A stretch of DNA of 64,000 bases from a virus. Shown here one piece after another: positions 823 through 59,277 of this stretch. Position 1 is the stretch's first letter, and the number at the start of each line of letters is the position of its first letter. Both the position numbers and the translations under genes were made by a program. The notes beneath the pieces were generated by a model. The model was given only the letters and a program-made list of their open reading frames with translations. It was not told the DNA's origin and made no database searches. The stretch covers positions 2,457-66,456 of the IMG/VR virus record IMGVR_UViG_3300044811_000020; one strand, 5' to 3'.

Positions 823-880
823 AATGCTCTCCATGGGGGTTAGGTGGTCGTACAGAGGAGTTCCGTTTGGGTGCCCCAAA

Positions 881-1081
881 CTAGCCGGGGCGTCGATAAC
901 GCCAGCCGATGGCTTGCGCTGACGATTTATCCAGCCATCTGATCGTAGCTTCGGCCATCTCGTCGGCTTTGACAGTGTTTCCATACTCGGTGACGTACCA
1001 AACGGCTCGTTTGGCGGCTGCGGTGGCCATGATGGCGAAAAGTTCCGCTATGGCGTTCTGTGCGGTCTTGCTGCGTTGCAT
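881..1081 (-). CDS. Hypothetical protein (MQRSKTAQN...)
   Basis: TAATG overlap with the upstream gene; GAGG RBS. Confidence 0.6.
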   Translation of the reverse strand: MQRSKTAQNAIAELFAIMATAAAKRAVWYVTEYGNTVKADEMAEATIRWLDKSSAQAIGWRYRRPG

Positions 1082-1572: not shown

Positions 1573-2209
1573 TAGGTGGCTCCGAGATGGCGCGATCAAG
1601 CGGCCATCCGCGCCGAATGCGCAGCGCGACTAGGCCGTAATCTGCGCCAGCGATCTCTACCGCCTCGGCCAAACACATATCCCGGCCGTGGTAATGCACG
1701 ATTTTGTTTGACCGCGTATTGCGGGCCTGCGTTTTTTTGGTGGCCCACACGCAATTGCCGGGGGAATACCCTTCCCCATTTTTCTCCCGCTCTATCGTCA
1801 TCATGGGAGACGGCTTCTTGCCCATATCGGCCAAGAAAAGATCAAACGAGTTGCGCCAGCGATCACACACCGCGATGCCTCGCCCTCCGTATGCGTGGAA
1901 TCTTGCGTTGTTTGGATTTTTACAGCGGTCAATCATATTGGCCCATGATCGATATTCTGGGCTAACTCCATCTGCCGCGGCATGGCCGTGGCGGCGCCTC
2001 GGGTTCCCGGCCTTTGCGTGGGCTATGCGTTCGCATTTGCAGGATTTTTGCTTGCCGCTTCTCAATTTGTCTCCATAGGTTGCGGATTCGTTGCCGCAAT
2101 CGCAACGGTATCGCCACCTGGCACTCCCATCTTTTGAATTTTCCGCTCTCGCGGTGACAGTTATTTTGCCAACGCGAAAGCCAACCATGTCAATGAAGTT
2201 GTATTTCAC
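1565..2209 (-). CDS. Free-standing HNH-type homing endonuclease (YGGRGI family)
   Basis: CDCG...KSCKC N-terminus; EYRSWANMIDRC, YGGRGIAVCDRW, GYSPGNCVWAT. Confidence 0.85.
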   Translation of the reverse strand: MKYNFIDMVGFRVGKITVTARAENSKDGSARWRYRCDCGNESATYGDKLRSGKQKSCKCERIAHAKAGNPRRRHGHAAADGVSPEYRSWANMIDRCKNPNNARFHAYGGRGIAVCDRWRNSFDLFLADMGKKPSPMMTIEREKNGEGYSPGNCVWATKKTQARNTRSNKIVHYHGRDMCLAEAVEIAGADYGLVALRIRRGWPLDRAISEPPNG

Positions 2210-3630
2210 GGCTCAAGCCTCTTGGAATGCTTGCGATAGATGCCTTGCGCCTCCTCGACGTCCGGCGGAAACATTCCCTCCAGTTTGGGCTCTATCCGAT
2301 CCACCCAGACATTTTCCAGATCCTCGGGCTCGGTGACGGCGGCTAGCGTCGCCTCCACCCATTTCAGGACGTCCTCGGGGTTGTCGCTGGGCGGCGCGCC
2401 AAGGGACTGATCCAACTGATCGTTGGCTGGCCCGTCCTCCATATCCGACGGCTCGGCCTTCTTTGGCGCGGGCTTCTTCGCTGCCTTCTCGGCGGCCTTC
2501 GCCTGTGCATCGCGCAGGCTCTGCATGGTCGCCTCGATCGTCTTTCGGACGGTCGCGTAAACCGATGGTTTCTTCTGCTCGAGCCGTTTGAGCGGGCCGG
2601 TCTGCGGGTCTTTGCTGTCTGCGGTGGTGAAGTCCTTCGTATTTTCATCGATCCATTTATAGACCGTGGCGGTGTCCTCTGATGTCTTAACGAGGTCGGA
2701 AAACTTCTCGGCCCAACTCTCGAACGTGTGGCCGGCGCCGGGGATGCGGTGCGGCTTCGGGCCGGGGTCTTTAAACCCATCTTTCCGCAGTGGCGTTCCG
2801 ACCGGATCAGCCATTGATCCCGATCCCATCTTGTCGATCGGAGCGGCCTTGGGCGTGGTGCGCGGCGGGCCGCTGCTGATCGGGTCCTCCTTTGGCGGCG
2901 TTTTGGCCTCGCGCGGGGGCGGGTCTCCGTCGCGGACGTCCTCAGCCTCGATGACCGGCGGTTCGGTCTGCTCCGTGGTCGTCTCGGCAGGCTTGGTGAT
3001 CTGGCGCGGCGGGCCTGCGTCGCGGTTCGGATCGATTTCGGCGATCTTCTGGCCTTCATCCTCGTCGTAGATGCCGGAGAATCCGAACGCATAGCGCGCA
3101 GCCTGGATGAGCGCCTTGTGGCGCAGCATGCGGTGTTTCATCTTCCACGGGTCGGTCGATCGGACACATTCAGCATAATATTCGGTAACCACGACGGGAT
3201 GCGTGCGGTCCTTCCGATACATGCTGCAGGTGCAGGAAATCAGTTTGTCGCCGTCGTGTTCCATTTCGAAGCTAAAACCGTCGCACTGGCCCTGCGCGTT
3301 GACGAGGTTAACCCAGCCGTCGACGGATACGATCGGCACGATGCCGCCACCGCGCGAGGGAAATGCATAGATTTCTTTCGTCAGCGGATTGAGGTTGTAT
3401 TCCTTCGCGACCATGAGGAACGCGGCGAACTGAGCCGGAGCGCAGTCCTTCGGGACTACGGTGGCGCGCAGGGCCGCCTCGAAAGCTGGCGGCTCCATGT
3501 GGAAGCGGTCGGCCATATCCGTGATGACGGATTTAACCGCGCGCGGCTGGTCGATAACGGTCATCTCGGTCGATTTGGTCGCCATTGTATCGTCCTTCGG
3601 TTTGTTTTTTGAACCCTTTGGCCTAGGCAT
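2206..3630 (-). CDS. bet: Bet/RecT-family single-strand annealing recombinase with long C-terminal extension
   Basis: FLMVAKEYNLNPLTKEIYAFP...IVSVDGW...RMLRHKALIQAARYAFGFSGIYDEDE matches lambda Red-beta. Confidence 0.93.
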   Translation of the reverse strand: MPRPKGSKNKPKDDTMATKSTEMTVIDQPRAVKSVITDMADRFHMEPPAFEAALRATVVPKDCAPAQFAAFLMVAKEYNLNPLTKEIYAFPSRGGGIVPIVSVDGWVNLVNAQGQCDGFSFEMEHDGDKLISCTCSMYRKDRTHPVVVTEYYAECVRSTDPWKMKHRMLRHKALIQAARYAFGFSGIYDEDEGQKIAEIDPNRDAGPPRQITKPAETTTEQTEPPVIEAEDVRDGDPPPREAKTPPKEDPISSGPPRTTPKAAPIDKMGSGSMADPVGTPLRKDGFKDPGPKPHRIPGAGHTFESWAEKFSDLVKTSEDTATVYKWIDENTKDFTTADSKDPQTGPLKRLEQKKPSVYATVRKTIEATMQSLRDAQAKAAEKAAKKPAPKKAEPSDMEDGPANDQLDQSLGAPPSDNPEDVLKWVEATLAAVTEPEDLENVWVDRIEPKLEGMFPPDVEEAQGIYRKHSKRLEP

Positions 3631-3639
3631 ATTATTCCC

Positions 3640-4587
3640 CTATCGGATGTCGGCTTTTTCCTCGACGGTGGCGCCGATCGCCACGAAACCTGCGGTGACC
3701 GTCTTTTGAGATAGGTCAAGCAGGAACGCATAAAGTTCGGGATCGTCGCGGAATTGTGCGAATGCCTTATCGATGTCGATGGCGGTCACAACCTTTTTGA
3801 GTTGGACTGATGCAGCGCGGCCGCTCGCGCCCTTGATCTTGGTCGATGGAGCCGGAGTATTCTGCGGAGGAGGCGGAGGGGCTGGCTTCCCCGCCTCCTC
3901 CGCTTCGCGCGCGGCCTTCGCTGCTTCGTCAGCGGCGCGGTGCGCGTTATCTCGTTTCACATCTTCCCACTTCCCCATCGCCTTGCGCAATGCGTCCGCG
4001 GCGTCGGCGGCCTCGTCGCGGAGCGGAAACCAGACCTTGCGAATCCGTTGCTGCTCGTCGAGGAGCGGGCGGTTCAATGCCTCATAGGCCTTCGTGGCCT
4101 TCCCGCTCAAGCCTGTGAGCGCGCTGCGGAGCGTCTGCGCCTTGGCGGACTGCTCGTCGCTGTCGATCGACGCATAAGCGGCCAAGCCAGCCTTGGCGGC
4201 GGCGATCTCGGCAGCGAGTGATCCGGCCGGGTCGGCCTCGGGATCAATCTCCGGTCCCTTGGCTGCTGCGGCTGCGCCAGCGTCCTCGTCATCCCATCGG
4301 CCGTGATCCATGAAATTCCAGTATGTCATGGCCGATATCGGATTGCGGGAGACGTAAGGCCACATCTCGAGCGCGCGCTGCATGTTGATGCTCTTGCCGT
4401 TTACCTGGCAGCGGAGCTCGCCTGTGTGTTCGTCGGCCCAATAGGCCACGGCCTGATATGGTCCCTGCGTGCGCCGGTCCTTGCCCTGCTCGCGCTGGCG
4501 GTAAAAACCGTGCATCGGCTCGCCATCGAATATCGGACCGCGGATGCCTTTCAGCGCGTTCTCGTGCCAAGTGAAATCGCTACCCAT
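3640..4587 (-). CDS. Conserved phage hypothetical protein, coiled-coil C-terminal half
   Basis: Long ORF; start at MGSDFTW with AAGGA RBS, overlapping the upstream gene end. Confidence 0.75.
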   Translation of the reverse strand: MGSDFTWHENALKGIRGPIFDGEPMHGFYRQREQGKDRRTQGPYQAVAYWADEHTGELRCQVNGKSINMQRALEMWPYVSRNPISAMTYWNFMDHGRWDDEDAGAAAAAKGPEIDPEADPAGSLAAEIAAAKAGLAAYASIDSDEQSAKAQTLRSALTGLSGKATKAYEALNRPLLDEQQRIRKVWFPLRDEAADAADALRKAMGKWEDVKRDNAHRAADEAAKAAREAEEAGKPAPPPPPQNTPAPSTKIKGASGRAASVQLKKVVTAIDIDKAFAQFRDDPELYAFLLDLSQKTVTAGFVAIGATVEEKADIR

Positions 4588-4993
4588 TGAATTTGCGTCC
4601 TTTCGGGAATGGTCGGCTCGGTATTTTCTGCCGCTGCTCTTTTGGTCTGCGCGGCTTGATTGTGGTCCGCTGTTTTTTTGGTTTGCCGCCCTTGCCTCCA
4701 AATTGAGTGTAGTAGTCAACGGCGAGAGAGAATGGATCGCGGCGCGTCCTGCGCCACCAGTCGCTCTCGTTGCCGTAGGCGTGTTGGCCGTCATGACACC
4801 ATCGGCACAACGGCACGGCCCATTTATCGTCCGGCTTCCGTCCTGCTCCAGTCAGCGGCTTATCGTGACGGTCTGATGCTGACCGGATATGTGCGGGATC
4901 GCACGGAGGCGGCTTCCCGCAAACGATGCAGTACCTAGTCTTGAGCCAGTCGAGATATGGCCGATCATAGAGTCTTGGTCTCCGCTGGGTCAT
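4580..4993 (-). CDS. DUF968-like zinc/HNH nuclease-domain protein
   Basis: YLDWLKTRYCIVCG...DPAHI...DDKWAVPLCRWCH; ATGA overlap at 4990-4993. Confidence 0.8.
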   Translation of the reverse strand: MTQRRPRLYDRPYLDWLKTRYCIVCGKPPPCDPAHIRSASDRHDKPLTGAGRKPDDKWAVPLCRWCHDGQHAYGNESDWWRRTRRDPFSLAVDYYTQFGGKGGKPKKQRTTIKPRRPKEQRQKIPSRPFPKGRKFNG

Positions 4994-5097
4994 CGATTCG
5001 CTATGTTGTAAAGCCATGTGATCAGCACGGCGTTGACGAGAAAGAACACGGCCACGCGCAGCAGGCGGGTGTGGAGGGACGGGCGGCGGGCGTTCAT
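4990..5097 (-). CDS. 35-aa membrane peptide
   Basis: MNARRPSLHTRLLRVAVFFLVNAVLITWLYNIANR; ATGA overlaps at both ends. Confidence 0.6.
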   Translation of the reverse strand: MNARRPSLHTRLLRVAVFFLVNAVLITWLYNIANR

Positions 5098-5246: not shown

Positions 5247-5437
5247 TTCTTCCTCCGATTGCCCTTGGCCGGCTTGTTCTTCATGCGAGCGGCTGTCGCC
5301 TTGACCTTCTGCTCGAGCACTTCCTTGCCCGCAGCGGCGGCCTTGCGGATGCCGGTGGTGATCTTGGCGTTCTCGGCAAAGCGGGCCTCGCGCATCTCGC
5401 GCAGAGCTCGCTCTCGCGGTCCCGGTTCTTTGCTCAT
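5243..5437 (-). CDS. Small basic protein (MSKEPGPRERALREM...)
   Basis: ATGA-coupled ORF in the chain. Confidence 0.65.
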   Translation of the reverse strand: MSKEPGPRERALREMREARFAENAKITTGIRKAAAAGKEVLEQKVKATAARMKNKPAKGNRRKK

Positions 5438-5556
5438 GCCGGCACCGCTACCCATGCGAGGATCATGCAAACGAGGAGGATGGCGACGCAGCCATAATAG
5501 GCGACGGTCCGGCCAACATAGGCGAGGGCGTCCAGCGCGTTCGGTTCGTACCTCAC
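5434..5556 (-). CDS. 40-aa membrane peptide
   Basis: GTG start with GGAGG RBS; YYGCVAILLVCMILAWVAVPA. Confidence 0.6.
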   Translation of the reverse strand: MRYEPNALDALAYVGRTVAYYGCVAILLVCMILAWVAVPA

Positions 5557-5729
5557 TTGAGCCTCCCAAGTTTCTCCACGACGTCGCGAATGGCGTCGTT
5601 GTAACCCTGCTGATAAAGATTATCAGGCGGTCTTATTTCTCTGATCCGGTGGATTTCTGCGGTCTTGATGCAGAAATCTATGGTGCTGCGCTTCACGTCG
5701 TCGGCCAACTTGTCGAGAACATCTTTCAC
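5553..5729 (-). CDS. 58-aa hypothetical protein
   Basis: GTGA overlaps; MKDVLDKLADDVKRS... Confidence 0.6.
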   Translation of the reverse strand: MKDVLDKLADDVKRSTIDFCIKTAEIHRIREIRPPDNLYQQGYNDAIRDVVEKLGRLK

Positions 5730-5815
5730 AGCAAAACTCCCAAGCTGAAAAGGATCGTGATCCCGGTCATGGCGCTGGCGATCATCCAGTATTGGATATG
5801 CTCGGAGGAGGTCAT
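5726..5815 (-). CDS. 29-aa membrane peptide
   Basis: AGGAGG RBS; MTSSEHIQYWMIASAMTGITILFSLGVLL. Confidence 0.55.
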   Translation of the reverse strand: MTSSEHIQYWMIASAMTGITILFSLGVLL

Positions 5816-5819
5816 TGCC

Positions 5820-6011
5820 TTAACCCTCCTTCTTGATGGATCTTTTCAGATCGTAGCATGCGGCGTTGACCGCGAATTTTCGATTGCTGAACCGACGGGT
5901 ATTCAGGGCCGCGTCGACAAGGAAGTGGCCCTGCGGGTGTTGAACCACAAACGTCTTATCGGACTGTTCATGGATCGAATAACCGACTGGCAGGGTTGGT
6001 GAGATGTGCAT
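5820..6011 (-). CDS. First gene of the leftward early operon, hypothetical
   Basis: MHISPTLP... behind a GGGAG RBS and the leftward promoter. Confidence 0.7.
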   Translation of the reverse strand: MHISPTLPVGYSIHEQSDKTFVVQHPQGHFLVDAALNTRRFSNRKFAVNAACYDLKRSIKKEG

Positions 6012-6385: not shown

Positions 6386-7177
6386 GTGGTTCGCAGCAAA
6401 GTATCGAAGAATGACAACATCGTTGACCCGAAGCTCAAGCGTACCTTTATCGAGATGAGGGACCATTTCCAGACCCTCGACGATCGGGCCAAGGGCGCGG
6501 CGGCCAAACGCCGGCAGTATCTGGCTGAGGTAAAAGAGGCCGGATATTCGCTGCAGCAGATCAAGATTTCGCTGCTACTTCAAACCCCCGAGGGCGAGGC
6601 CGAGTTCAAGGCGGAGATGGCCAACCGGCTCCTCGCTGCGGCTTATTCGGATGCGGATATCGGTGAGCAGCTTTCCCTGTTCCTAGATGGTGATCGTACG
6701 CCGGCGGCTGATCGGGCTTACAAAGAGGGCCAGACGCTCGCGATGAAAAACGAGGCGATGGTCTGCACCAAATATGCGCCCGAAACGGACCAATATGCGG
6801 CTTTCGTTTCCGGATATCAGGACGAGCAGGAGCGCCAAGTTAAGGCCGGGATTGGGAAACTCGACGCCAAAGAGGCCAAAAAGAACGCGAAGGGCTCCAA
6901 AGCCAAGCCCGCGAAGGCCGCCAAGCCGGGTAAGAAACGGGGCCGCCCTGCCAAATCGGCCGCGGAAGCCCCTGCGGAGGCCAACGGCGCGCGTCTGATT
7001 ACCAAGGCCGAGAAGGAGGCCAAGGCGGCCGCCCGTGCACCCAAGGCTGACGTTGGGCCGCCTCGGTGCCCTGCGGCTCAACCGGTGACCCGTGCGACGC
7101 TGGCGGCGCAGAAGGCCGCGGCAAAGGAGGAAGCGGACAGCTATTTCAGTCGGGCTGAGCCGAAGGGTAATGCCTGA
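6386..7177 (+). CDS. Putative nucleoid-associated protein (GapR-like N-terminus, K/A-rich tail with AT-hook)
   Basis: RRQYLAEVKEAGYSLQQIK resembles the DUF2312 core; KKRGRPAK; AAGGA RBS with GTG start. Confidence 0.5.
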   Translation: MVRSKVSKNDNIVDPKLKRTFIEMRDHFQTLDDRAKGAAAKRRQYLAEVKEAGYSLQQIKISLLLQTPEGEAEFKAEMANRLLAAAYSDADIGEQLSLFLDGDRTPAADRAYKEGQTLAMKNEAMVCTKYAPETDQYAAFVSGYQDEQERQVKAGIGKLDAKEAKKNAKGSKAKPAKAAKPGKKRGRPAKSAAEAPAEANGARLITKAEKEAKAAARAPKADVGPPRCPAAQPVTRATLAAQKAAAKEEADSYFSRAEPKGNA

Positions 7178-7680
7178 TGGCCCGAACGAACCATGGGTGG
7201 TCTGAAACTCCGACTTATCGGAGTTGGCAGCATATGAATTCCCGGTGCCGGAACCCGAATTTCCCTGGCTACAACGAGTATGGCGGCAGCGGGATAAAGG
7301 TATGCGATCGGTGGAGAAATTTTCAGAATTTCTTGGCCGATATGGGGCCGCGCCCTCCCGGTAAAACATTGGATCGATATCCCAATGGGGCGGGGAACTA
7401 TGAGCCGGGCAACTGCCGCTGGGCTACCGTAGACGAGCAATTAGTCAACCGTTGCAACACCATCCACCTTACGATCGACGGGGTAACCAAGCCCTTTGTT
7501 GATTGGCAACGCGAATCTGGGCTGGCCCGACATGTGATCTATGTTCGTCTCATGTCGGGATGGCCTCATAAGGACGCTGTATTCAAGCCGCCGCGTCAGT
7601 ATGTGAAATCTGGAATCTATAACGGACGCATCGCACGTCGACGCGCAGCACGTGAGCAAATTTGCAGTGGCCCGAACTGA
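7177..7680 (+). CDS. HNH-type homing endonuclease (YGGRGI family)
   Basis: TYRSWQHMNSRC, YGGSGIKVCDRW, GNYEPGNCRWAT. Confidence 0.85.
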   Translation: MARTNHGWSETPTYRSWQHMNSRCRNPNFPGYNEYGGSGIKVCDRWRNFQNFLADMGPRPPGKTLDRYPNGAGNYEPGNCRWATVDEQLVNRCNTIHLTIDGVTKPFVDWQRESGLARHVIYVRLMSGWPHKDAVFKPPRQYVKSGIYNGRIARRRAAREQICSGPN

Positions 7681-7772: not shown

Positions 7773-8771
7773 ATGGAACAGAAAACCAGCATTTTGCATA
7801 TGCGCGCGCCGCTATCTGACCCGATGGCGGCCATTCGGCTCAAGCCTACTGATCGGGATTCGTCCTTGGTCGATTTGGCCTTTGCCATGGACCGGTATCC
7901 GGAAGAAACGAAGGATCTGACGTTCGATCAACTGGGTGACTTCTTTCGGAAGAAGCGCGGCGAGGTGCAGCGGGCGGCGCGGGAGGCGAAGCGCTGTGAT
8001 GCTGAAATGGAGATGCTGCAGCGGGACGTTGCTAGTTTGGATCAACTCAGAGCATGGGCGGAGTCTGTCCCCGCCATGCAGAAGCCGCGCGAGCCTTCTT
8101 TCCGTAGGTTCCGCCGCGCCATGCTGGATTGGGAAACCGTGCAATATGGCCCGAAATGCGAGAGCCGTGAGTTTGATCAGGAGGTTATGAAGTTCGTAGA
8201 GCCGTTCATGATTGAGCACGATTGGTCTGCGGCGCTGCGCGCTAGTTTTGATGGCGATATTCGGCTGCCTTACGAGGTATGCGCGTTTGAGTTCCGGTTC
8301 GGTGACCGGCCGGTGCTGGCGATCGCCACTCAATTCGAAAGCGATATCATGTTTTCGTTGGCCGTCGAGATGGACCGGTGGGTATTCTGCGGCTGTGCCA
8401 TGTCGGTTCATACCAGCCGGTCGACGGTAGCGGACGCGGTTGGGTCCGTGCATAGCCGAGTGGCGGATCAGATTCGGGCTGTCTGTATCGCACTAGACGC
8501 GGAGGTGGCGGTTTCTGAGGCGGCGCGCGCGGACCATCCTGGCGCGGCCTCTGCGGCGCTGCGCGTGCCGGGCCGGGATTATCACGTCGTCTCGCTGGCT
8601 ACGCGCCACGCGCGCCCTGCGCCGCTGGGCGGCGATCCTACTGGCCGCCGGGTCCGGCTGCATTTCCGCCGCGGCCATTGGCGCCATTTCGACAACCACA
8701 AGACTTGGATCCGGTGGATGCTCGTCGGTGATCCTGATCTCGGGTTCATCGAAAAGCATTACACGCTATGA
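7773..8771 (+). CDS. Phage hypothetical protein with C-terminal HxRRGHWR motif
   Basis: LHFRRGHWRHF...WIRWMLVGDP; AGGAG RBS. Confidence 0.75.
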   Translation: MEQKTSILHMRAPLSDPMAAIRLKPTDRDSSLVDLAFAMDRYPEETKDLTFDQLGDFFRKKRGEVQRAAREAKRCDAEMEMLQRDVASLDQLRAWAESVPAMQKPREPSFRRFRRAMLDWETVQYGPKCESREFDQEVMKFVEPFMIEHDWSAALRASFDGDIRLPYEVCAFEFRFGDRPVLAIATQFESDIMFSLAVEMDRWVFCGCAMSVHTSRSTVADAVGSVHSRVADQIRAVCIALDAEVAVSEAARADHPGAASAALRVPGRDYHVVSLATRHARPAPLGGDPTGRRVRLHFRRGHWRHFDNHKTWIRWMLVGDPDLGFIEKHYTL

Positions 8772-9289
8772 GGATAGCCGCATTTGACCCCGGGATTAAC
8801 GGCAGCGCGGCGCTCCTGAGCCATGGCGGGGATTTTGATCCCGGCCATCCTCAGTTCCTCGATATGGTCGACCTTGCGACGGTTCCCGACGGTGAGAAGC
8901 GCCAGTTAGACGCCAGTTTCATCTGCGATCTGATGGAACGATGGATTCCCGATGCGGTGGTGATTGAGAACGTCCAGCCGATGCCCTCGATACCTGGCGC
9001 GGATGGCGCGCGCCGGTCAATGGGCGCGGCGAGTTCGTTCCGGTTCGGCCTCGCCTGCGGGATGATTCGGGGCGTGGTCGCGGTCTATACGACGCCGGTG
9101 ACGATGGTTCACCCGCAAAGCTGGAAGCGTCATTTCGGGCTCAAGGGCGCGGATAAAAAGCCCGGCGTCGCGCTGATCAAAAAACTCTATCCGTCCTGTG
9201 AACCTTTTATCACGCTGGTTAAACACCATGGCAGGGCTGACGCCGGGCTGATGGCGGCTTGGTATGCTGAAAAACGAGGGATGCTGTAA
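8768..9289 (+). CDS. RuvC-like Holliday junction resolvase
   Basis: AFDPG, VVIENV, SSFRFG, HPQSWK, GRADA catalytic pattern. Confidence 0.88.
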   Translation: MRIAAFDPGINGSAALLSHGGDFDPGHPQFLDMVDLATVPDGEKRQLDASFICDLMERWIPDAVVIENVQPMPSIPGADGARRSMGAASSFRFGLACGMIRGVVAVYTTPVTMVHPQSWKRHFGLKGADKKPGVALIKKLYPSCEPFITLVKHHGRADAGLMAAWYAEKRGML

Positions 9290-10668
9290 TGGGCGAGACA
9301 TTTTTGGACGGCCGCGTGACGATGCTGCTGGGCGATGTGCGGGAGCGGCTGCGCGGGCTGCCGGCGGACCATTTCGATTGCGTGGTGACTTCGCCGCCAT
9401 ATTGGGGGCTGCGGGATTATGGGACCGCTACGTGGGAGGGTGGCGACGACTTTTGCGACCATCGATCACCAACCATGAAAGATGGACGCAACGAGGCGCG
9501 CGCGACAATGCCGGGATCGGTGGCGACGAATTCGGCGCAGCTGCTGCTGGCGCATCGGTCGGCGTGCGGGCGCTGCGGCGCGGTCAAGGTGGATCGGCAG
9601 ATAGGTCTGGAGCCAACGCTGGGCGAGCACTTGGCCGTCATGGTCGATGTTTTCGAGGAAGTGCGGCGCGTGCTCAAGCCAACTGGAACGCTCTGGCTTA
9701 ATTACGGGGATTGCTATGCCACGGCGCCGAACGGGCGGAGCGCGGCGGATATCAAACTGCTGGGGACTGATGACCGGACATATCGGGATAAGCCGTTCTC
9801 AACCGTGGGGAAAATATATCCGCCGACTGGCGATGATCCGTTCAACCGCGCCGCTGGCGGCCGTCGCGGTGGCGGATTGAACAGCGATCCGATGCTTAAA
9901 GCCAAAGACCTTTGCATGATCCCGAACCGACTGGCGATCGCGCTGCAGGAGGCTGGCTGGTGGGTGCGGTCGGAAATCATCTGGCACAAGCCTAATCCGA
10001 TGCCGGAGAGTATTACGGATCGCCCGACGACCAGCCATGAGAAAATCTGGCTTCTGACGAAAAGCGAGCGATATTTCTATGATGCGGAGGCTATCCGCGA
10101 GCCGGTGACTGGCACCGCAAACGATCGGCGCTTGGACGGTGAGTATCTGCCGGCGAAGGGCGCTGATCCCAATGACAGGCGAGTCGGTACTTGGAAAACC
10201 GGGAAAGCCAAGAAAATTAAAGCGCCGGACGGTTGGGATACTGGGTCTGGTGCGCATGGTTCAGTCCATCGGAATGGGCGTGAAAAAGGCAAGACGGTAG
10301 TGGTCGACCATTTGCCTGAGACGCGCAATGCCCGGAACGTCTGGACAATTCCGACCGCGGCATTCTCCGAGGCTCATTTCGCGACGTTCCCGCCTGAGCT
10401 CGCGGAGCGGTGCATCAAGGCAGGCTCGCCGGCGGGCGGGAGTATCTTGGATCCGTTCGGTGGCTCGGGCACGACGGCCATGGTTGCCGCCTCTCTGGGC
10501 CGCATAGCCACGCTAATCGAGTTGAACCCTGAGTATGCCACCCTGGCCCGCGCGCGCATCGAGGCGGCGTTTATGGGCCGTGAGGAGGGTGCCCGGCATA
10601 TGGTGAAAAAGCTCGGGAAACTAGCGGTAGATGCCGGACCGCTCTTTGCACAACCCCTAGAGGGATGA
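9289..10668 (+). CDS. Orphan DNA amino-methyltransferase (beta class, SPPY; probably N4-cytosine)
   Basis: CVVTSPPYWGLRDY ... HFATFP ... ILDPFGGSGTT. Confidence 0.93.
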   Translation: MGETFLDGRVTMLLGDVRERLRGLPADHFDCVVTSPPYWGLRDYGTATWEGGDDFCDHRSPTMKDGRNEARATMPGSVATNSAQLLLAHRSACGRCGAVKVDRQIGLEPTLGEHLAVMVDVFEEVRRVLKPTGTLWLNYGDCYATAPNGRSAADIKLLGTDDRTYRDKPFSTVGKIYPPTGDDPFNRAAGGRRGGGLNSDPMLKAKDLCMIPNRLAIALQEAGWWVRSEIIWHKPNPMPESITDRPTTSHEKIWLLTKSERYFYDAEAIREPVTGTANDRRLDGEYLPAKGADPNDRRVGTWKTGKAKKIKAPDGWDTGSGAHGSVHRNGREKGKTVVVDHLPETRNARNVWTIPTAAFSEAHFATFPPELAERCIKAGSPAGGSILDPFGGSGTTAMVAASLGRIATLIELNPEYATLARARIEAAFMGREEGARHMVKKLGKLAVDAGPLFAQPLEG

Positions 10669-10674
10669 TGGGCA

Positions 10675-10704
10675 TTGACGATTCGCGAGGAATAGCCTTA
10701 CAAA
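10675..10704 (+). promoter_or_regulatory. Putative sigma70 promoter for the long structured RNA
   Basis: TTGACG(10675-10680)-N17/18-TTACAA/TACAAA. Confidence 0.55.
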
Positions 10705-10778
10705 TGCGAAAGGCCCCGGGGTGCAAACCCGAGACCTTTCTAAAACCGATGTAGCTTTGGCGGCCATCGGGGAGCGCA
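10702..10778 (-). ncRNA. Putative ~75-nt antisense RNA (Inc/RNA I/ctRNA-like)
   Basis: Own promoter at 10813-10785; CCGATG/CATCGG stem-loop with CGCCAA loop; 13-bp terminal stem perfect only on the minus strand (2 G-U pairs). Confidence 0.6.
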
Positions 10779-11240
10779 AGAATTGATTTATGGCCTTTGT
10801 GCCTTTTCGTCAACTCCTGTTCCCTCACAATCCCGCCAAGTCAGATCGGTTCCCGTGGCAGCGTCACGCGCACACCGATCCGCGCTGTCACGTCTAAACC
10901 GGCCGATGGATGGACCGATATCGGCGGCCGGCGGGCATGGCTTGGGAGTAAAGCCCGGATATCCGCGTCCTCGGCGCGAACAAGACTCCGCGAATGACCG
11001 GGCCGAGATGCCCCCGGCATCGTGTCGCAAGTGCTGTGTCGATTTTTGTGCCCATCTTGGATGGTCGAAAAAATAGACATTGCCCCGGCAGCCGAAGGCG
11101 GGACTCCGGTCCTGCCTTGGGTGGCCTATGTCGCCATTTACCTCGCTATCGCTCGGGTAAATGGTGCGCTCTGAAAGAAGGTAAAGGTCTATCAGGTAAG
11201 TAAGAAATACAGACCGTCATTGTTGAAACAGGGGAAATAT
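10706..11240 (+). ncRNA. Long structured non-coding region; candidate primer RNA/origin or regulated leader of the dnaB operon
   Basis: Largest gene-free stretch in the window; successive hairpins GATCGGT/ACCGATC, CCGGCCG/CGGCCGG, AAGGCGGGAC/GTCCTGCCTT, CCATTTACC/GGTAAATGG. Confidence 0.5.
10785..10813 (-). promoter_or_regulatory. Antisense sigma70 promoter
   Basis: TTGACG-N17-TAAATC on the minus strand. Confidence 0.6.
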
Positions 11241-11244
11241 AAAT

Positions 11245-11598
11245 ATGCCGATAAAGCCTGAAAACGCCGCGCGATATCCAAAGGATTGGAAAAAGGTTGT
11301 TGTGCCGCGTATCCGGGCAAGGTCGGGCGATCGTTGCGAATGCCGTGGTGAATGCGGTGATGGCGAAAATGAGCACGGCGGACGCTGCAAGGCGATGAAC
11401 CGCCAGCCGCATCCGGTGACGAAATCAATGGTAGTGCTCACGGTGGCCCATCTGAATCACACTCCGGAAGATTGCCGCGAGGAGGTGCTGCGGCATATGT
11501 GCCAGCGCTGCCACCTTCGATATGACAGTTCCCATCATCAGAAAAATGCGCGCGTGACGCGATTCAAGAAAATCGGGCAGGAGGATTTTGGACTGTGA
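11245..11598 (+). CDS. HNH endonuclease-like protein
   Basis: RCEC...VVLTVAHLNH...CQRCHLRYD. Confidence 0.8.
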   Translation: MPIKPENAARYPKDWKKVVVPRIRARSGDRCECRGECGDGENEHGGRCKAMNRQPHPVTKSMVVLTVAHLNHTPEDCREEVLRHMCQRCHLRYDSSHHQKNARVTRFKKIGQEDFGL

Positions 11599-11822
11599 AG
11601 CAAACTCGCAAGGCATCTCTCGTTGAATCGTTTTTGAACGTGGCTATCGGGTACGGGATAGCGTTGGCGTCCCAAATCATCGTATTTCCGTGGTTTGGGA
11701 TAAATATCCCTCTATCCAGCAATATCGCGATCGGGGTTATTTTCACGGTGGTTTCCATCGGTCGGAGTTTTGCCATCCGCCGATTGTTCGAGGCGATGCG
11801 CGTTAACGGGCTGCTCCGATGA
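11595..11822 (+). CDS. Small two-TM phage membrane protein
   Basis: SLVESFLNVAIGYGIAL...FTVVSIGRSFAIRRLF; GTGA/ATGA coupling. Confidence 0.75.
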   Translation: MKQTRKASLVESFLNVAIGYGIALASQIIVFPWFGINIPLSSNIAIGVIFTVVSIGRSFAIRRLFEAMRVNGLLR

Positions 11823-13240
11823 GTGAATATTCCGATTTGAGCGTCGAGCAGCAACTTCTTGGCGCCGTCCTCATGAACAATGCAGCCTATGGGCTGGTCG
11901 AGGATATCGTTAAGGCGGAGCATTTCTTCGAGCCGCTACACAGGCATATCTGGGAAGTCTGCGGCTCCCTGATATCGCACGGAAAACTGTGCTCGCCGGT
12001 GACGCTGCGGACCTTCCTGCCGGCCGATGTGCGGGTTGGGGATATGGGGCTGCGGGAATACGTTGCCGCGCTCTGCGCGGAAGCGACGACGGTGATCAAT
12101 GCACCGGACTTCGCACGAATCATCCGCGATCTGGCTGACCGGCGGATAATCATCGAGGTCGGGCTGGAACTGCAACAGTCGAAAGAGCGGGACAATCTGA
12201 CGCTTTCGGCATGGGCAGTGGATTATCTCGACGGCATCGTGGCAGCGCAGTCGATGAATGACGCGCCTGCGGTCGATATGAAGCAGGCGGTAACGCGGGC
12301 GATCGACGCGGCAGCCCATGCGTTCCAGCGCGACGGCAAGGTCCGTGGGGTTGCGTACGGGCTGGCTGGGTTGGATCAGAAAACGCTCGGGGCGATGCCG
12401 GGGCAGTTGATCGTGATCGCTGGCCGTCCTGGTATGGGCAAATCGGCGCTGGCGCTCGGGATCGCGCGGAATATGGCGGAGGATGGCAACCCGGTGCTGT
12501 TCTGGTCCGGGGAGATGGGCGATGTGGATCTGACCACCCGCATGATCTCGGACAAGCTTTGGTCGCCAAGTCACCGGCTGACGTATTGGCAGATTGCCTC
12601 GGGCAAAATGCGAGAGGAGCGGTTTCAGGATATCATCCGGGTGGGGCGCGAGCTCGCCGAGTTGCCGATCCGGATTGAGCAGCAACCGGGCTTGACAGTC
12701 TCGCAGATCGGCGCGCGCGCGCGGCAGTGGAAGCGCAAGCATGGCCTCAAGGCACTATTCGTCGACCATCTGGGGCTTATTCGGGCCTCGGGCCGGTATG
12801 CCGGCAACAAGGTCAATGAGACTGGCGAAATCACCATGGGCCTCAAGATGCTCGCCAAGGAGCTCGGGGTGCCGGTGTTCCTGCTCTGCCAGATCAACCG
12901 CGGCGTCGAGCAGCGGGAGGACAAGCGGCCCTCGCTGTCGGATCTGCGCAATTCTGGCGATATCGAGCAGGATGCCGACACGGTGATGATCCTCTATCGG
13001 CCGGCATATTACCACGCCAAGAAAGAACCGCACCCGGCCAGTGCTGAATTCATCATCTGGGCCGATGAAATGGCCAAGTTCGAGCATCGCTTGGATGTCG
13101 CAATCGAAAAACAACGGTCGGGTCCGGTGGGGACGGTGCGGCTCCACTGCGATATTGCGAGCAACGCCTGTAGGGATGAAATTTCGGAAATGGATGATTC
13201 GCTGCTGACGCCCGGAGAGGCGATAGGAGATTTTGTCTGA
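11819..13240 (+). CDS. dnaB: Replicative DNA helicase
   Basis: EQQLLGAVL N-domain; Walker A AGRPGMGKS; VDHLGLI; QINR; SDLRNSGDIEQDAD; KQRSGP. Confidence 0.96.
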   Translation: MSEYSDLSVEQQLLGAVLMNNAAYGLVEDIVKAEHFFEPLHRHIWEVCGSLISHGKLCSPVTLRTFLPADVRVGDMGLREYVAALCAEATTVINAPDFARIIRDLADRRIIIEVGLELQQSKERDNLTLSAWAVDYLDGIVAAQSMNDAPAVDMKQAVTRAIDAAAHAFQRDGKVRGVAYGLAGLDQKTLGAMPGQLIVIAGRPGMGKSALALGIARNMAEDGNPVLFWSGEMGDVDLTTRMISDKLWSPSHRLTYWQIASGKMREERFQDIIRVGRELAELPIRIEQQPGLTVSQIGARARQWKRKHGLKALFVDHLGLIRASGRYAGNKVNETGEITMGLKMLAKELGVPVFLLCQINRGVEQREDKRPSLSDLRNSGDIEQDADTVMILYRPAYYHAKKEPHPASAEFIIWADEMAKFEHRLDVAIEKQRSGPVGTVRLHCDIASNACRDEISEMDDSLLTPGEAIGDFV

Positions 13241-13677
13241 TGGTCGCATATGGATTCAAAAAGCAATTTATAGAGCCGATATTTTGGGGGCTTGATGGGA
13301 TGCGCGGCGTCTGCCAGCTGCGGCGCCCAAAATGCCAGACTATTCGCGCAGTAGGTAAGCGGCGGCATGCACGCCCTGGCGAGATAATCCAACTTTATAC
13401 AGCGATGCGGACGAAGCAGTGCCGCAAACTCGGCGATGCGCGCTGCGTCAGCGTCGAGGGTGTTCTGCTGAAATGGTCCGAGTGGCCATCATTCTGCACC
13501 TTCGATATCGGCCCGGACGGTCGGCGCGTTGGGTCTATTCGGGATATCGGGGATATGGAGGAGTTTGCGCGCAGCGATGGTTTTCCTGATTTTGCCGCTA
13601 TGCGCAAGTTTTGGGCCGATGAGCATGGGCCAGAGACATTCGAGGGATATCTGATCAAGTGGGAGCCAATGGCATGA
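13240..13677 (+). CDS. ASCH/PUA-like domain protein
   Basis: KCQTIR...PGEIIQLYTAMRTKQC...FARSDGF. Confidence 0.65.
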   Translation: MVAYGFKKQFIEPIFWGLDGMRGVCQLRRPKCQTIRAVGKRRHARPGEIIQLYTAMRTKQCRKLGDARCVSVEGVLLKWSEWPSFCTFDIGPDGRRVGSIRDIGDMEEFARSDGFPDFAAMRKFWADEHGPETFEGYLIKWEPMA

Positions 13678-14204
13678 CGTTTACGAGCACGACTATCCGG
13701 AAGCTGCGCGCATTAAATCTGGATCAGGATACTTTCGACAAGGTGCTCGAGATATTCGAGGAGGCGAGAGAGGCAAAGCCGAAAAAGAAGGGATGTGCTG
13801 CCGATCGGCAGGATCGCGCCACGCGGTTGCCGGACGATTGGGCTCTGCCGGAGGACTGGAAGCAGTGGGCGCTGCGAATTGGGCTGCAGCCGCGCGAGGT
13901 GGTGCGGGAGGCCATATCCTTCAAGAGCTATTGGCTGAATTGCGCAGGCGAGAAGGGCCGGAAACTCGTTTGGAAGCTCACTTGGCAGACCTGGTGCCGG
14001 CGGATGCTGGAACGGGCTGGGCGCCAGCCGATCGAGCCTGACGCCATAAGCGCTGCGGTGCCGGTCGAGGGGCCGCAGACATTCACGGATGCGACATGGC
14101 GGGCCATCGCCAAGCGCTATCAATCCACAGGGCAATGGAATGCTAGTTCATGGGGTCCGTCGCCTGAGATGATGGATTGTCTGATGCCGGAGCGATATCT
14201 GTGA
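13674..14204 (+). CDS. DnaT-like ssDNA-binding replication protein lacking an N-terminal HTH initiator domain
   Basis: RATRLPDDW...FKSYW...KGRKLVWKLTWQTWCRR is typical of phage replication-protein C-termini. Confidence 0.6.
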   Translation: MTFTSTTIRKLRALNLDQDTFDKVLEIFEEAREAKPKKKGCAADRQDRATRLPDDWALPEDWKQWALRIGLQPREVVREAISFKSYWLNCAGEKGRKLVWKLTWQTWCRRMLERAGRQPIEPDAISAAVPVEGPQTFTDATWRAIAKRYQSTGQWNASSWGPSPEMMDCLMPERYL

Positions 14205-14806
14205 GATATTCAGTGCGAGAGATGCGGCAGATGATTGCGGCCCATCATTACACTCACTCCTTGCCGGCTGGAGAGAATATTTTCACTCAGTTTGAAGAGG
14301 CTGTTTTGATATTTTCGAGGCCGGCGAATATGAATATCAGCCGATGGCTTGTAGGCGACGATAACCAGGTTTGGGAACTCTCTAGAATGTGGGCTCCGGA
14401 TGGCCATAGGCGAAACTTGCTTACGCAGGCGATTGCGTCTTGCACGGTTGATTTTTTGGCCGCCGCTCGTCGGATGTCGTCCGGGGAATGTACTGCTCTT
14501 ATCAGTTATGCTGACCCGAACGTGGGCCATAGCGGCCTCATTTATCGGGCGGCGTCGTGGGTATATCTTGGACAGTCGGAGGAAGGGCGCTATTATACAG
14601 GTCCTGGCGGTGAAGTTATGTCGCGTCGGAGTTTCCATTCATCAAGCATTGGGAAAACAAAATCGGAAATTCTATCTCTTGGATATTCCGAGGATCGAAA
14701 GCCCGGTAAGCATCGTTTTGCTCGTGGCCTGACGAAAGCGGCCAAGAAAAAGATTGAATCTCGCAAAATAAAAATTGACCTCGCTGGTGGCCGCGCTATT
14801 CTATGA
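14201..14806 (+). CDS. Mom-family (GNAT-fold) adenine modification protein
   Basis: IAAHHY, WELSRMW, LISYADPNVGHSGLIYRAASWVYLG; GTGA overlap. Confidence 0.82.
   Translation: MRYSVREMRQMIAAHHYTHSLPAGENIFTQFEEAVLIFSRPANMNISRWLVGDDNQVWELSRMWAPDGHRRNLLTQAIASCTVDFLAAARRMSSGECTALISYADPNVGHSGLIYRAASWVYLGQSEEGRYYTGPGGEVMSRRSFHSSSIGKTKSEILSLGYSEDRKPGKHRFARGLTKAAKKKIESRKIKIDLAGGRAIL
14775..14802 (+). promoter_or_regulatory. Internal sigma70 promoter
   Basis: A-tract, then TTGACC-N16-TATTCT. Confidence 0.7.
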
Positions 14807-14816
14807 CGGTCGCAAA

Positions 14817-14834
14817 CGAGGCGCAGCCTCAACC
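14817..14834 (+). repeat. 18-nt leader motif, copy 2
   Basis: Identical to 6045-6028 (-). Confidence 0.85.
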
Positions 14835-14848
14835 TTCGGGAGATGCAG

Positions 14849-58710: not shown

Positions 58711-58735
58711 TTGCTTGCTCCGTTTCGATAGACAC

Positions 58736-58773: not shown

Positions 58774-58798
58774 ATCACGTATTGTTACAGCGTCGTTT

Positions 58799-59227: not shown

Positions 59228-59277
59228 GGGGGTTCCTCAGTGTTCAATTTTACTGTTCCGGTCTGTTTGAATGATCG

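What the first reader, a model, noticed from the sequence alone, without database searches (positions are those of the whole stretch)
10675..11240. Plasmid-style antisense-RNA control locus upstream of dnaB: candidate RNA-primed origin
Seen: convergent TTGACG promoters (+ 10675; - 10813). The minus transcript of about 75 nt ends in a 13-bp stem that is perfect only on that strand (G-U pairs; C-A mismatches on +). The plus transcript has a stem-loop (10746-10770) presenting TTGGCGG (10757-10763), an exactly complementary CCGCCAA downstream (10833-10839), and then about 400 nt of strong hairpins. Established: IncI/IncB plasmids use a UUGGCG loop as both the Inc-RNA target and a pseudoknot partner of a distal CGCCAA. 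ColE1 uses a short antisense RNA against the 5' end of a ~550-nt primer RNA. Inference: antisense binding competes with pseudoknot formation to gate either R-loop priming or expression of the dnaB operon. No iterons or O-type initiator are visible in the window.
Basis: partly seen in the sequence, partly recalled or inferred. Interest (0 to 1): 0.82.

Follow-up and report, generated by a model that had tools for sequence, protein, structure and literature searches.

The report
Antisense-controlled leader RNA before phage dnaB
A small group of uncultured phages carries, just ahead of their DNA-replication genes, a conserved non-coding unit made of a long folded leader RNA with a nearly invariant 140-base core and a facing gene for a small antisense RNA that probably throttles it. 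The control logic is a known kind, but the RNA is undescribed and the role of its core is unknown.

Summary
The 576-bp gap 10669-11244 lies between a DNA methylase gene and an HNH/DUF7220/dnaB block. It is non-coding and is conserved as a unit in six other distinct viral or metagenomic sequences. An eighth sequence keeps only the promoter/antisense part.

Both TTGAC(G) boxes are kept in every copy that includes them. The minus-strand RNA (about 75-80 nt: a stem-loop plus a GC-rich terminator and U tract) is predicted in 7 of 7 sequences, and its terminator stem has a different sequence in each.

The plus strand folds into hairpins that covary: 18 pairs changed on both sides, against 9.0±1.8 in shuffles. 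It contains a core (10893-11033) that is 96.5% identical while the flanks are 49-66% identical.

Rfam 15 has no family for it. It was not found in GenBank phages, PLSDB plasmids or the bacterial genomes searched.

The IncI-style loop-CGCCAA pseudoknot is not conserved. A longer helix between the 5' half of the target hairpin and a segment about 85 nt downstream is conserved.

Conservation runs into the ribosome-binding site and stops at the ATG. I therefore read the unit as an antisense-throttled leader of the replication operon (0.6). A ColE1-like RNA-primed origin remains possible (0.15). No strand-resolved expression data exist.

The parts
10675..10704 (+). P+: -35 box TTGACG (10675-10680), 17-18 nt spacer, weak -10 (TTACAAA, 10698-10704) that overlaps the A/T tract of the antisense terminator. 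A GANTC site (GATTC) lies at 10680-10684.
   Evidence: TTGAC is invariant in 7 of 7 sequences that reach this far, while the spacer varies. GANTC lies inside P+ in 5 of 7. Not listed by the consensus scan. The promoter role is inferred.
10697..10779 (-). Predicted antisense RNA, about 75-80 nt: 5' stem-loop (10770-10746), spacer, 13-bp terminator hairpin (10740-10708) and U tract (10705-10700). Both ends are inferred.
   Evidence: Folds. The same two-hairpin architecture appears in 7 of 7 relatives, with z -2.8 to -4.9. The terminator stems differ in sequence in every relative. A T tract follows only on the - strand.
10786..10813 (-). P-: TTGACG (10813-10808), N16, ATAAAT (10791-10786).
   Evidence: TTGAC[GC]-N16-[ACG]TA[ATG][AGT]T is found in all 8 distinct sequences that include it. 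The surrounding block TTTGTGCCTTTTCGTCAAC is partly conserved.
10711..11244 (+). Predicted leader RNA, about 530 nt, from the inferred P+ start to the start codon of the first downstream gene.
   Evidence: No T-tract terminator on + inside it. The conserved block ends at the ATG. The consensus fold favours + over -: -111.8 against -100.1 kcal/mol, and 96.6% against 83.5% of cells paired.
10744..10763 (+). 5' arm plus loop of the target hairpin SL1 (includes TTGGCGG). It is one side of the long-range helix and lies inside the antisense-covered stretch.
   Evidence: Duplex with 10833-10851 is -23.5 kcal/mol. It is better than 500 shuffles in 7 of 7 sequences, with fractions 0.000-0.034. Inverted repeat I1.
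10833..10851 (+). Distal partner of the long-range helix (CCGCCAAGTCAGATCGGTT). It lies downstream of P-, so the antisense RNA does not cover it.
   Evidence: The arm sequences change together in L085, L086 and L174.
10854..10892 (+). Hairpin H3: an 11-bp stem with a conserved loop (…GCGCACACCGATCCGC).
   Evidence: 6 of 11 pairs changed on both sides and 100% of cells paired (helix 1).
10893..11033 (+). Near-invariant core. Predicted hairpins at 10899-10931, 10932-10957 and 10964-10978, then a 17-nt single strand and the 5' side of a four-way junction.
   Evidence: Mean pairwise identity is 96.5% (minimum 94.4), against 48.7% for the 5' module and 55.6% for the tail. The helices never vary, so the fold here is a prediction only (helices 3-9).
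11035..11081 (+). Variable hairpin. Its sequence is free, and it is replaced by a short hairpin in the L086 type (32 columns shorter).
   Evidence: helix 10: 3 of 6 pairs changed on both sides.
11092..11165 (+). 3' domain: hairpin 11092-11120, the closing strand of the junction (11122-11132) and the final 10-bp hairpin (11133-11165).
   Evidence: Helix 12: 7 of 10 pairs changed on both sides. The whole stem is swapped in L091 and L086.
11166..11247 (+). A+T-rich, purine-rich tail with conserved GTCTATCA and ATTGTGGAAACAGGGG (Shine-Dalgarno), then the ATG of the first gene (11245).
   Evidence: GC 0.38-0.43 and GC skew +0.39. The block is conserved up to the start codon, while the downstream gene differs in each relative.

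Best explanation
The gap is a self-contained regulatory unit at the head of the phage's replication (dnaB) gene block.

How it is built:
- A promoter (P+, TTGACG at 10675, with a weak -10) launches a leader RNA of about 530 nt.
- The leader folds into covarying hairpins around a nearly invariant 140-nt core. It runs, with no terminator, into the ribosome-binding site and ATG of the first downstream gene.
- A better-matched promoter (P-) faces P+ from 133 bp downstream. It makes an RNA of about 75-80 nt, a stem-loop plus an intrinsic terminator. This RNA is complementary to the first 70 nt or so of the leader and stops on top of P+.

How it most likely works:
- The antisense gene damps the operon in proportion to template copy number, in two ways.
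- First, convergent transcription ends on P+ and so occludes it.
- Second, the antisense RNA pairs with the leader's 5' end. This removes the leader's 5' hairpins and blocks a conserved long-range helix (10744-10763 with 10833-10851), leading to decay or misfolding of the leader.

Shown: conservation, covariation, strand bias, and the conserved block running into the Shine-Dalgarno region and ending at the ATG.

Inferred: that both RNAs are made, the sign of the regulation, and the step it acts on. The role of the invariant core is not explained.
For: Non-coding:
- No Pfam or PHROG hit for ORF 10783-11076.
- Only 2 called proteins among 5.8 billion match it, and only over the core.
- The ORFs are broken by indels in the L085 and L086 types.
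- The few changes in the core are non-synonymous in the ORF frame.

A conserved unit between non-homologous neighbours:
- Upstream genes are methylases of three different families or RusA.
- Downstream are variable small genes, then DnaB in the window, L084, L085, L087 and L174. In L082 DnaB lies 4 kb further on.

Promoters and antisense RNA:
- Both promoter boxes are kept in every sequence that includes them, at fixed spacing.
- The antisense RNA folds as stem-loop plus terminator plus U tract in 7 of 7, with non-identical stems.

Plus-strand structure:
- 96.6% of 707 cells are paired, against 36-43% when partners are slid.
- 18 pairs are changed on both sides, against 9.0±1.8 in shuffles (0 of 500 reach it).
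- 101 G-U cells lie on +.

Long-range helix: better than shuffles in 7 of 7.

Leader rather than free RNA: there is no + terminator, and conservation runs into the Shine-Dalgarno region and stops at the ATG.

Portability: L174 has the same promoter/antisense module with an unrelated leader of about 270 nt before a small gene and dnaB.
Against: - There are no strand-resolved expression data. The only RNA-library contigs are long, unstranded and could be DNA.
- The consensus scan lists neither promoter nor the window's terminator, whose T tract is weak.
- The family is small: 7 distinct core sequences plus 1 module-only sequence, all from related uncultured phages.
- The core helices never vary, so their fold is unproven.
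- An anti-SD mechanism was tested and not supported, so how a 5' event reaches a ribosome-binding site 400 nt away is open.
- Near-invariance of 140 nt is more than a passive leader needs.
- Energies on the two strands of the antisense region show no consistent strand preference.
Confidence: 0.6

Rival explanations
1. RNA-primed origin of the ColE1 kind. The plus RNA is a pre-primer that forms a persistent hybrid near its 3' part and is cut to prime leading-strand synthesis. The antisense RNA refolds its 5' end so that no primer forms. The phage's DnaB and its DnaT-like protein are then loaded on the displaced strand.
For: - The geometry matches ColE1 as described in PMC11012335 (Introduction passages). 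There, a sense RNA starts 555 bp upstream of the origin, has alternative conformations, and an antisense RNA made in the opposite direction changes its folding. Here the sense RNA is about 530 nt and the antisense RNA covers its 5' end.
- A target-to-downstream helix is conserved.
- No iterons were found.
- No initiator family was hit; there is only a weak C-terminal 'primosomal/replication initiation' match at 13659-14204.
- An A+T-rich, purine-rich stretch lies at 11150-11240.
- Near-invariance of the core suggests interaction with a conserved host machine.
Against: - The conserved block runs into the Shine-Dalgarno region and stops at the ATG, not at a separate origin.
- The purine-rich tail is not kept in the L086 type.
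- There is no overall G-richness of the RNA strand.
- L174 keeps the antisense module but replaces the whole downstream RNA.
- There is no Rfam match to RNAI or any other family.
- Lambda OOP RNA, once proposed as a primer, turned out not to be one (PMC12197685 passage).
Confidence: 0.15
2. The invariant core is a functional RNA in its own right, and the antisense gene merely sets its level or fold. The core could be a ligand-sensing, catalytic or host-factor-binding domain, or a decoy or sponge. Being in a leader could be its mode of action (riboswitch-like) or incidental.
For: - The core is 96.5% identical where flanks are 49-66% identical.
- It has an invariant 17-nt single strand and a predicted four-way junction.
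- Strong nucleotide conservation is expected of biochemically demanding RNAs (PMC5737381, section 17 passage).
- It is absent from Rfam 15.
Against: - Even the stems are invariant, which is not the usual riboswitch pattern.
- All members come from a narrow set of phages, so invariance may be overstated (same passage).
- No expression platform (terminator or SD-sequestering helix) could be shown.
- L174 does without the core.
Confidence: 0.15
3. A DNA-level site: a protein-bound origin or operator, or a recombination 'linker' between gene modules. On this reading the hairpins are incidental.
For: - It sits at a module junction whose neighbours are swapped between phages.
- CCGAT/ATCGG occurs 7 times in 576 bp, against about 2.3 expected from the window's rate of 4.06 per kb.
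- An invariant GACTC and two GATATC palindromes lie in the core.
Against: - Compensatory changes keep the pairing, and 101 cells are G-U on the + strand, which would be A-C mismatches on the other strand.
- There are no repeat arrays.
- The CCGAT arms covary as pairing partners in L085 and L086.
Confidence: 0.05
4. A type I toxin-antitoxin or small-protein cassette. The plus RNA would encode a small membrane peptide (11061-11174, 37 aa with a hydrophobic stretch) that the antisense RNA represses.
For: A hydrophobic ORF in the same frame occurs in the window, L082 and L090.
Against: - A stop codon removes its start in L084.
- The frame is shifted by two 1-nt insertions in the L086 type, and the peptide is not hydrophobic in L085.
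- There is no ribosome-binding site before it.
- The antisense RNA lies 300 nt away.
- The same bases form covarying hairpins.
Confidence: 0.03

Closest known systems
ColE1 RNA I / RNA II replication control
   Same: - Face-to-face promoters.
- A short antisense RNA that covers the 5' end of a sense RNA of about 550 nt and ends near the sense promoter.
- A sense RNA with alternative pairings involving the antisense target.
- The same position in the control of replication functions.
(PMC11012335 Introduction passages; here.)
   Different: - Found in a phage, not a plasmid.
- No sequence or covariance-model similarity.
- The antisense RNA has two hairpins, not three.
- The sense RNA's conserved block ends at the start codon of an operon.
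- Priming, RNase H and Pol I dependence are untested.
- No Rom-like gene was looked for.
Lambda OOP RNA (pO-oop-tO)
   Same: A phage-borne antisense RNA of about 77 nt with its own promoter and terminator, placed just upstream of the replication genes and read against early transcription. It was once suspected to be a primer (PMC12197685 passage).
   Different: OOP overlaps the 3' end of the cII coding region. Here the antisense RNA overlaps the non-coding 5' end of a leader that has its own promoter, and a large structured RNA follows.
repABC ctRNA of alphaproteobacterial plasmids (for example p42d, Ti)
   Same: - A small antisense RNA gene in an intergenic region directly upstream of a replication gene.
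- It acts through refolding of the sense leader.
- The hosts belong to the same bacterial class that the phage DnaB points to.
(PMC3155836 abstract and Background passages; DnaB neighbours.)
   Different: - In repABC, pairing creates an intrinsic terminator just before repC. No + strand terminator exists here.
- No match to Rfam ctRNA families.
- The leader here is about 400 nt longer and contains an invariant core.
IncI-alpha / IncB Inc RNA with repZ pseudoknot
   Same: The antisense RNA and a distal sequence are both complementary to the same target hairpin. The window and L085 even carry UUGGCG in that loop. The motif and the competition model are known to me only from titles in the reference list of PMC10724649 and from recall.
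   Different: - The motif is exact in 2 of 7.
- Loop-only pairing is not above shuffles in most relatives.
- The distal partner is not next to a ribosome-binding site.
- There is no leader peptide.

Membership tests
ColE1-type RNA I/RNA II origin | A short antisense RNA, read convergently, complementary to the 5' end of a long sense RNA. | tested here: met
   Predicted from conserved promoters and terminator in 7 of 7 sequences. The transcripts themselves have not been observed.
ColE1-type RNA I/RNA II origin | The sense RNA switches between two folds: the target segment pairs with a downstream segment, which otherwise pairs further downstream. | tested here: inconclusive
   The first pairing is better than shuffles in 7 of 7. 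A second partner (the H3 loop) is not better than shuffles: fractions 0.10-0.81 in 6 of 6.
ColE1-type RNA I/RNA II origin | A persistent RNA-DNA hybrid at the origin, RNase H cut and Pol I extension. | not testable with these tools
   Needs replication assays and RNA-DNA junction mapping.
ColE1-type RNA I/RNA II origin | Homology to RNAI/RNAII (Rfam RNAI). | tested here: not met
   No Rfam match at gathering score in the window, and none to this family at E up to 10 in 10400-11500.
IncI-alpha/IncB pseudoknot control | A target loop with 5'-UUGGCG-3' that pairs with a distal CGCCAA. | tested here: not met
   The loop motif is exact in 2 of 7 (window, L085). Loop-to-distal duplex fractions against shuffles are 0.04, 0.67, 0.08, 0.35, 0.34, 0.17 and 0.45.
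IncI-alpha/IncB pseudoknot control | The distal partner adjoins the rep ribosome-binding site, and a translated leader peptide opens it. | tested here: not met
   The partner at 10833-10839 is about 400 nt from the SD at about 11230. No conserved ORF is present.
repABC ctRNA (Rfam ctRNA_p42d) | A covariance-model match, and a leader that forms an intrinsic terminator when paired. | tested here: not met
   No Rfam match. No hairpin followed by a T tract on + between 10780 and 11244.
Lambda OOP-type antisense RNA | The antisense RNA overlaps the 3' end of an upstream protein gene (cII). | tested here: not met
   The antisense RNA ends at about 10700, which is 30 nt past the methylase stop at 10668.
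Rhizobiales-2 RNA (RF01723) | A score at or above the family's gathering score of 40 bits. | tested here: not met
   Only the L086 antisense strand scores, at 26.7 bits, driven by its terminator stem. No match on the element in the 4 other records, and none in the window at E up to 10. Weak matches also occur in 4 of 14 control genomes.
Type I toxin-antitoxin | A conserved small hydrophobic ORF on the sense RNA. | tested here: not met
   The ORF is intact in 3 sequences (window, L082, L090) and lost or frame-shifted in L084, L085 and the L086 type.

The most novel reading that the evidence does not exclude
The leader is not just a leader. Its near-invariant core would be a new class of functional RNA that starts or licenses phage DNA replication, with a plasmid-style antisense RNA setting how often it fires. 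The most concrete form is a ColE1-like pre-primer used by a phage that has DnaB and a DnaT-like factor but no recognisable initiator, primase or iterons. That would be an RNA-primed, antisense-throttled origin in a phage, with probable alphaproteobacterial hosts.
Probability: 0.17. Interest if true: 0.85.

Novelty: new variant of a known kind. Interest (0 to 1): 0.6.

Why it matters
Antisense RNA control of replication functions is textbook for plasmids. It is known for a few phages (OOP, and by recall P4 and N15), almost all of them from enterobacteria.

Here the same logic is supported by comparison alone in uncultured phages whose DnaB is closest to that of Hyphomicrobiales. It is attached to a large structured RNA that no library describes.

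It gives:
- a clean, portable promoter/antisense cassette for alphaproteobacterial genetics;
- a testable case of how a 5' antisense event is relayed through a 500-nt leader;
- an RNA core of about 140 nt whose conservation asks for a partner (a host enzyme, a ligand or the DNA itself).

If the core proves to be a primer or a sensor, it would explain how phages without an initiator gene start replication.

Tried and rejected
Known RNA families. Nothing in the window reaches a gathering score. At E up to 10 in 10400-11500 there are only two chance-level hits, scr5239 and SNORD27. No tRNA or tmRNA. In L174 and L086 there are only sub-threshold hits. The Rhizobiales-2 hit (26.7 bits against 40) rests on one terminator stem and is not shared.

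Anti-SD idea. I tested whether a C/U-rich tract after P- pairs with the Shine-Dalgarno region. Fractions of 300 shuffles as good were 0.05, 0.24, 0.59, 0.60, 0.08, 0.20 and 0.59, with no preference for the cognate partner. Pairing of that tract with the G-rich stretch after SL1 was weak: 0.03-0.33.

Pseudoknot between the distal segment and the H3 loop. Not above shuffles, 0.10-0.81.

MAFFT/RNAalifold on the antisense strand misaligned the non-identical terminators and gave no usable consensus. I used single folds instead.

Searches that found nothing:
- GenBank phages, blastn.
- PLSDB plasmids.
- Exact 25-mer in 185,579 species' genomes.
- The 80 loci around relatives of the HNH gene.
- Covariance model R1 of the core in 5 genomes and then in 151 genomes of the order of G001. 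This means 'not found in those searched', and no positive control genome exists.
- A pattern scan of all 223 loci for further promoter/terminator/promoter modules found only known copies.
- The first exact pattern, from SL1, found nothing in viral contigs.

Sequencing runs.
- One search listed 24 runs in 19 studies. Only one holds half or more of the sampled words, and it may be the source sample. The others hold small shares that I did not lay, so I draw no conclusion on habitat from them.
- I laid four runs. Two metatranscriptome libraries of one study each have one long contig (12,893 and 4,323 nt) of the L086 type across 10863-11035. Contigs give no strand, ends or level, and DNA may be present in such libraries, so this is not evidence of transcription.
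- Parts without cover mean nothing.

Unknown neighbours were searched against PDB sequences (7773-8771, 13659-14204, 6386-7177, 5259-6002). Nothing was found below E 0.02, so the absence of an initiator is unproven. No integrase or partition gene was recognised among the ORFs I scanned, and the phage's lifestyle is open.

Literature. Searches (listings only, apart from the papers named elsewhere) turned up no description of this element. Supplementary files were not opened, so motif lists in the supplements of PMC5737381 could hold something I did not see.
Full report
Setting. The window is 64 kb of a 66,456-bp virus record that CheckV rates complete. On the + strand the genes are:
- an HNH gene (7177-7680);
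- an unknown gene (7773-8771);
- a RuvC-like resolvase (8768-9289);
- an N6/N4 DNA methylase (9289-10668);
- then the 576-bp gap;
- then a small HNH gene (11245-11598), DUF7220 (11595-11822), DnaB (11819-13240), an unknown gene (13240-13677), a protein with weak similarity to the C-terminal part of 'primosomal/replication initiation' PHROGs (13659-14204), and a Mom-like protein.

RecT and an exonuclease lie on the other strand at the left end. The phage DnaB is at most 38% identical to any GenBank phage protein. It is 38-44% identical to chromosomal DnaB of Mesorhizobium, Xanthobacteraceae, Aestuariivirga, Bartonella and other Hyphomicrobiales. That is the only pointer to the host.

The observation.
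- The minus RNA predicted from TTGACG-N16-ATAAAT folds into a 6-bp stem-loop and a 13-bp uninterrupted stem followed by GCAUUUGU: -33 kcal/mol, z -2.8.
- On the + strand that stem has two mismatches and no T tract follows it.
- The whole gap folds better than shuffles, with z -3.35 on +.
- Taken alone these features are weak. TTGACG occurs 45 times in the window against 34 expected, and an E. coli-type scan lists neither promoter nor this terminator.

Relatives.
- Blast against GenBank phages found nothing.
- The closest relatives of the downstream HNH gene have no such gap in front of it.
- An exact search with one hairpin found three viral contigs. Core patterns then found more in viral and metagenome collections.
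- After removing duplicates there are seven distinct sequences with the core: window, L084, L082, L085, L086 (with near-identical L087 and L089), L090, and L091, which is cut at its 5' end.
- A profile search of all 223 loci held added L174, which matches only the first 165 positions.

The neighbours differ.
- Upstream is a methylase of the N6_N4 family (window, L084), a PHROG-799 methylase (L085), an MT-A70 methylase (L087), another methylase (L174) or RusA (L082).
- Downstream is an HNH gene, a MazG-like gene, unknown small genes or DUF5131.
- DnaB follows within 0.2-1.2 kb, or at 4 kb in L082.
- The element is therefore a unit that keeps its place at the head of the replication block while the genes around it are exchanged.

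Not a gene.
- ORF 10783-11076 has no family.
- In 5.8 billion predicted proteins, only two short calls match it. Both come from copies of this same element, and both match over the core only.
- Indels of 1, 3 and 32 nt between relatives break every frame that crosses the region.
- Outside a 6-column linker, the core has 7 variable columns in 136. In the frame of that ORF the changes alter the amino acid.
- A hydrophobic 37-codon frame at 11061-11174 recurs in L082 and L090. It is cut by a stop in L084, shifted in the L086 type and not hydrophobic in L085.

The antisense gene.
- The box TTGAC[GC], 16 nt, then [ACG]TA[ATG][AGT]T is present in all eight distinct sequences that include it. From recall, this resembles the alphaproteobacterial housekeeping consensus. 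It also resembles another promoter-like site of this phage at 14775.
- The RNA predicted from it folds the same way in 7 of 7: a 5-7-bp stem with a 12-16-nt loop that usually contains CAAG, a short spacer, an 11-13-bp G+C-rich stem, then a U tract.
- z-scores run from -2.8 to -4.9, and 0-3 of 200 shuffles do as well.
- The terminator stems share almost no sequence, so pairing has been kept by compensating changes.
- The T tract is on the minus strand only.
- Energies do not consistently favour one strand in this stretch. That is expected, because both RNAs would carry the hairpins.

P+.
- TTGAC lies just after the stop codon of whatever gene is upstream in 7 of 7, at a fixed distance from the terminator. 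It sits beyond the end of the minus RNA, where that RNA gives no reason for conservation.
- Its -10 (TACAAA, CATAAA or the like) is poor and coincides with the terminator's A/T tract.
- A start near 10711 would put the complement of the terminator hairpin at the very 5' end of the plus RNA. The antisense RNA would then cover its first 70 nt or so and stop on P+ itself.
- Five of 7 P+ regions contain one or two GANTC sites within 14 nt of the -35 box. The window's background rate is 2.05 per kb.

The plus RNA. RNAalifold on the 8-row alignment gives 13 helices downstream of P-. Counting pairs on that structure:
- 96.6% of 707 cells are standard pairs, against 36-43% with partners slid by 1-3 columns.
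- 18 pairs are changed on both sides, against 2-7 when slid and 9.0±1.8 when shuffled (0 of 500 shuffles reach it).
- The support sits in H3 (6 of 11 pairs), the variable hairpin (3 of 6), hairpin 11092-11120 (2 of 12) and the final hairpin (7 of 10).
- Helices 3-9, inside the core, never vary. They are therefore neither supported nor contradicted.

Strand.
- 101 cells are G-U on +, so the mirror structure on - pairs only 83.5% of cells.
- A fresh consensus fold of each strand gives -111.8 kcal/mol on + and -100.1 on -.
- The caveat is that the structure was derived on the + strand.

Conservation is very uneven. Mean pairwise identity is 48.7% in the promoter/antisense part, 76% in H3, 96.5% in the core 10893-11033, 65.9% in the 3' domain and 55.6% in the tail. 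The conserved tail includes the Shine-Dalgarno region, and the alignment dissolves right after the ATG. No hairpin followed by a T tract lies on + anywhere in the leader.

The proposed pseudoknot.
- The window's TTGGCGG/CCGCCAA match is real. As a loop-to-distal contact, however, it beats 500 shuffles at the 0.05 level in only 1 of 7 sequences. The fractions are 0.04, 0.67, 0.08, 0.35, 0.34, 0.17 and 0.45.
- L084 has two uncompensated mismatches in it.
- What is shared is a longer imperfect helix between the 5' arm plus loop of SL1 and a segment 80-90 nt downstream. It beats shuffles in 7 of 7 (fractions 0.000-0.034), including L174, where the paired sequences differ.
- Cognate pairs are only slightly better than non-cognate ones (-22.5 against -19.6 kcal/mol), because the CCGAT/ATCGG centre is common to all.
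- This helix and SL1 exclude each other, and the antisense RNA covers one side of it only. That is the logic of ColE1 and of attenuator plasmids.
- I looked for what the freed distal segment might do. Pairing with the H3 loop and an anti-SD relay are both unsupported.

Reading.
- The simplest account of all this is an antisense-throttled leader of the replication operon.
- The ColE1-like primer idea fits the geometry and the lack of iterons or a recognisable initiator.
- It is weakened by three points. The conserved block ends at a start codon. The same antisense cassette fronts an unrelated leader in L174. There is no G-rich hybrid-forming tract.
- The history of OOP RNA is a warning (PMC12197685).
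- The near-invariant core remains unexplained under every reading, and it is the most interesting part.

Known families. No Rfam family matches. The element works like ColE1 RNA I/II, lambda OOP and the repABC ctRNA (PMC11012335, PMC12197685 and PMC3155836; passages seen). It is a member of none of them; see the membership table.

Earlier notes of this scan on the same genome record the DnaB/DnaT-like module without an initiator (e1-6171921). I checked this only through PHROG hits. Notes on other genomes describe other phage antisense cassettes but not this DNA.

Limits.
- There is no strand-resolved expression evidence.
- There are eight sequences, all from related uncultured phages.
- Promoter strengths and RNA ends are inferred.
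- Duplex tests used mononucleotide shuffles, and I tested several hypotheses.

Noticed in passing
window 10677-10684; L086, L090 and L174 P+ regions: GANTC (CcrM-type) sites lie inside or next to the -35 box of P+ in 5 of 7 sequences (two sites each in L086, L090 and L174). The gene just upstream is a DNA methylase in 5 of 6 contexts. The promoter may be sensitive to methylation state. That CcrM recognises GANTC is recalled.
   Followed up: partly
L174:3440-3708: A relative with 88% identical DnaB has the same promoter/antisense cassette, followed by an unrelated non-coding leader of about 270 nt before a small gene and dnaB. There is no Rfam match. It may be a second leader type for the same cassette.
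   Followed up: partly
L003:1654-3354 and L082:5850-10562 (same viral contig): The HNH gene that follows the element in the window (93% identical protein) sits elsewhere in this relative. There it follows a methylase and a small DUF4326-like gene with no gap, 3.7 kb downstream of the element. This shows module shuffling around the element.
   Followed up: partly
window 11061-11174: A 37-codon frame with a hydrophobic stretch overlies the 3' hairpins. It is intact in the window, L082 and L090 and broken in L084, L085 and the L086 type.
   Followed up: yes
window 14775-14840: A promoter-like site, TTGACC then 15-16 nt then CTATTC, is followed by a short GC hairpin and a GGGAG ribosome-binding site before the gene at 14843.
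   Followed up: no
window 10669-11244: CCGAT/ATCGG occurs 7 times in 576 bp, against about 2.3 expected from the window's rate. Most copies are arms of the predicted helices, and two GATATC palindromes lie in the core.
   Followed up: partly
window 1-5000 and 55400-64000: No integrase, repressor or partition gene was recognised among the ORFs scanned with PHROGs or Pfam. Whether the phage is temperate is open.
   Followed up: no
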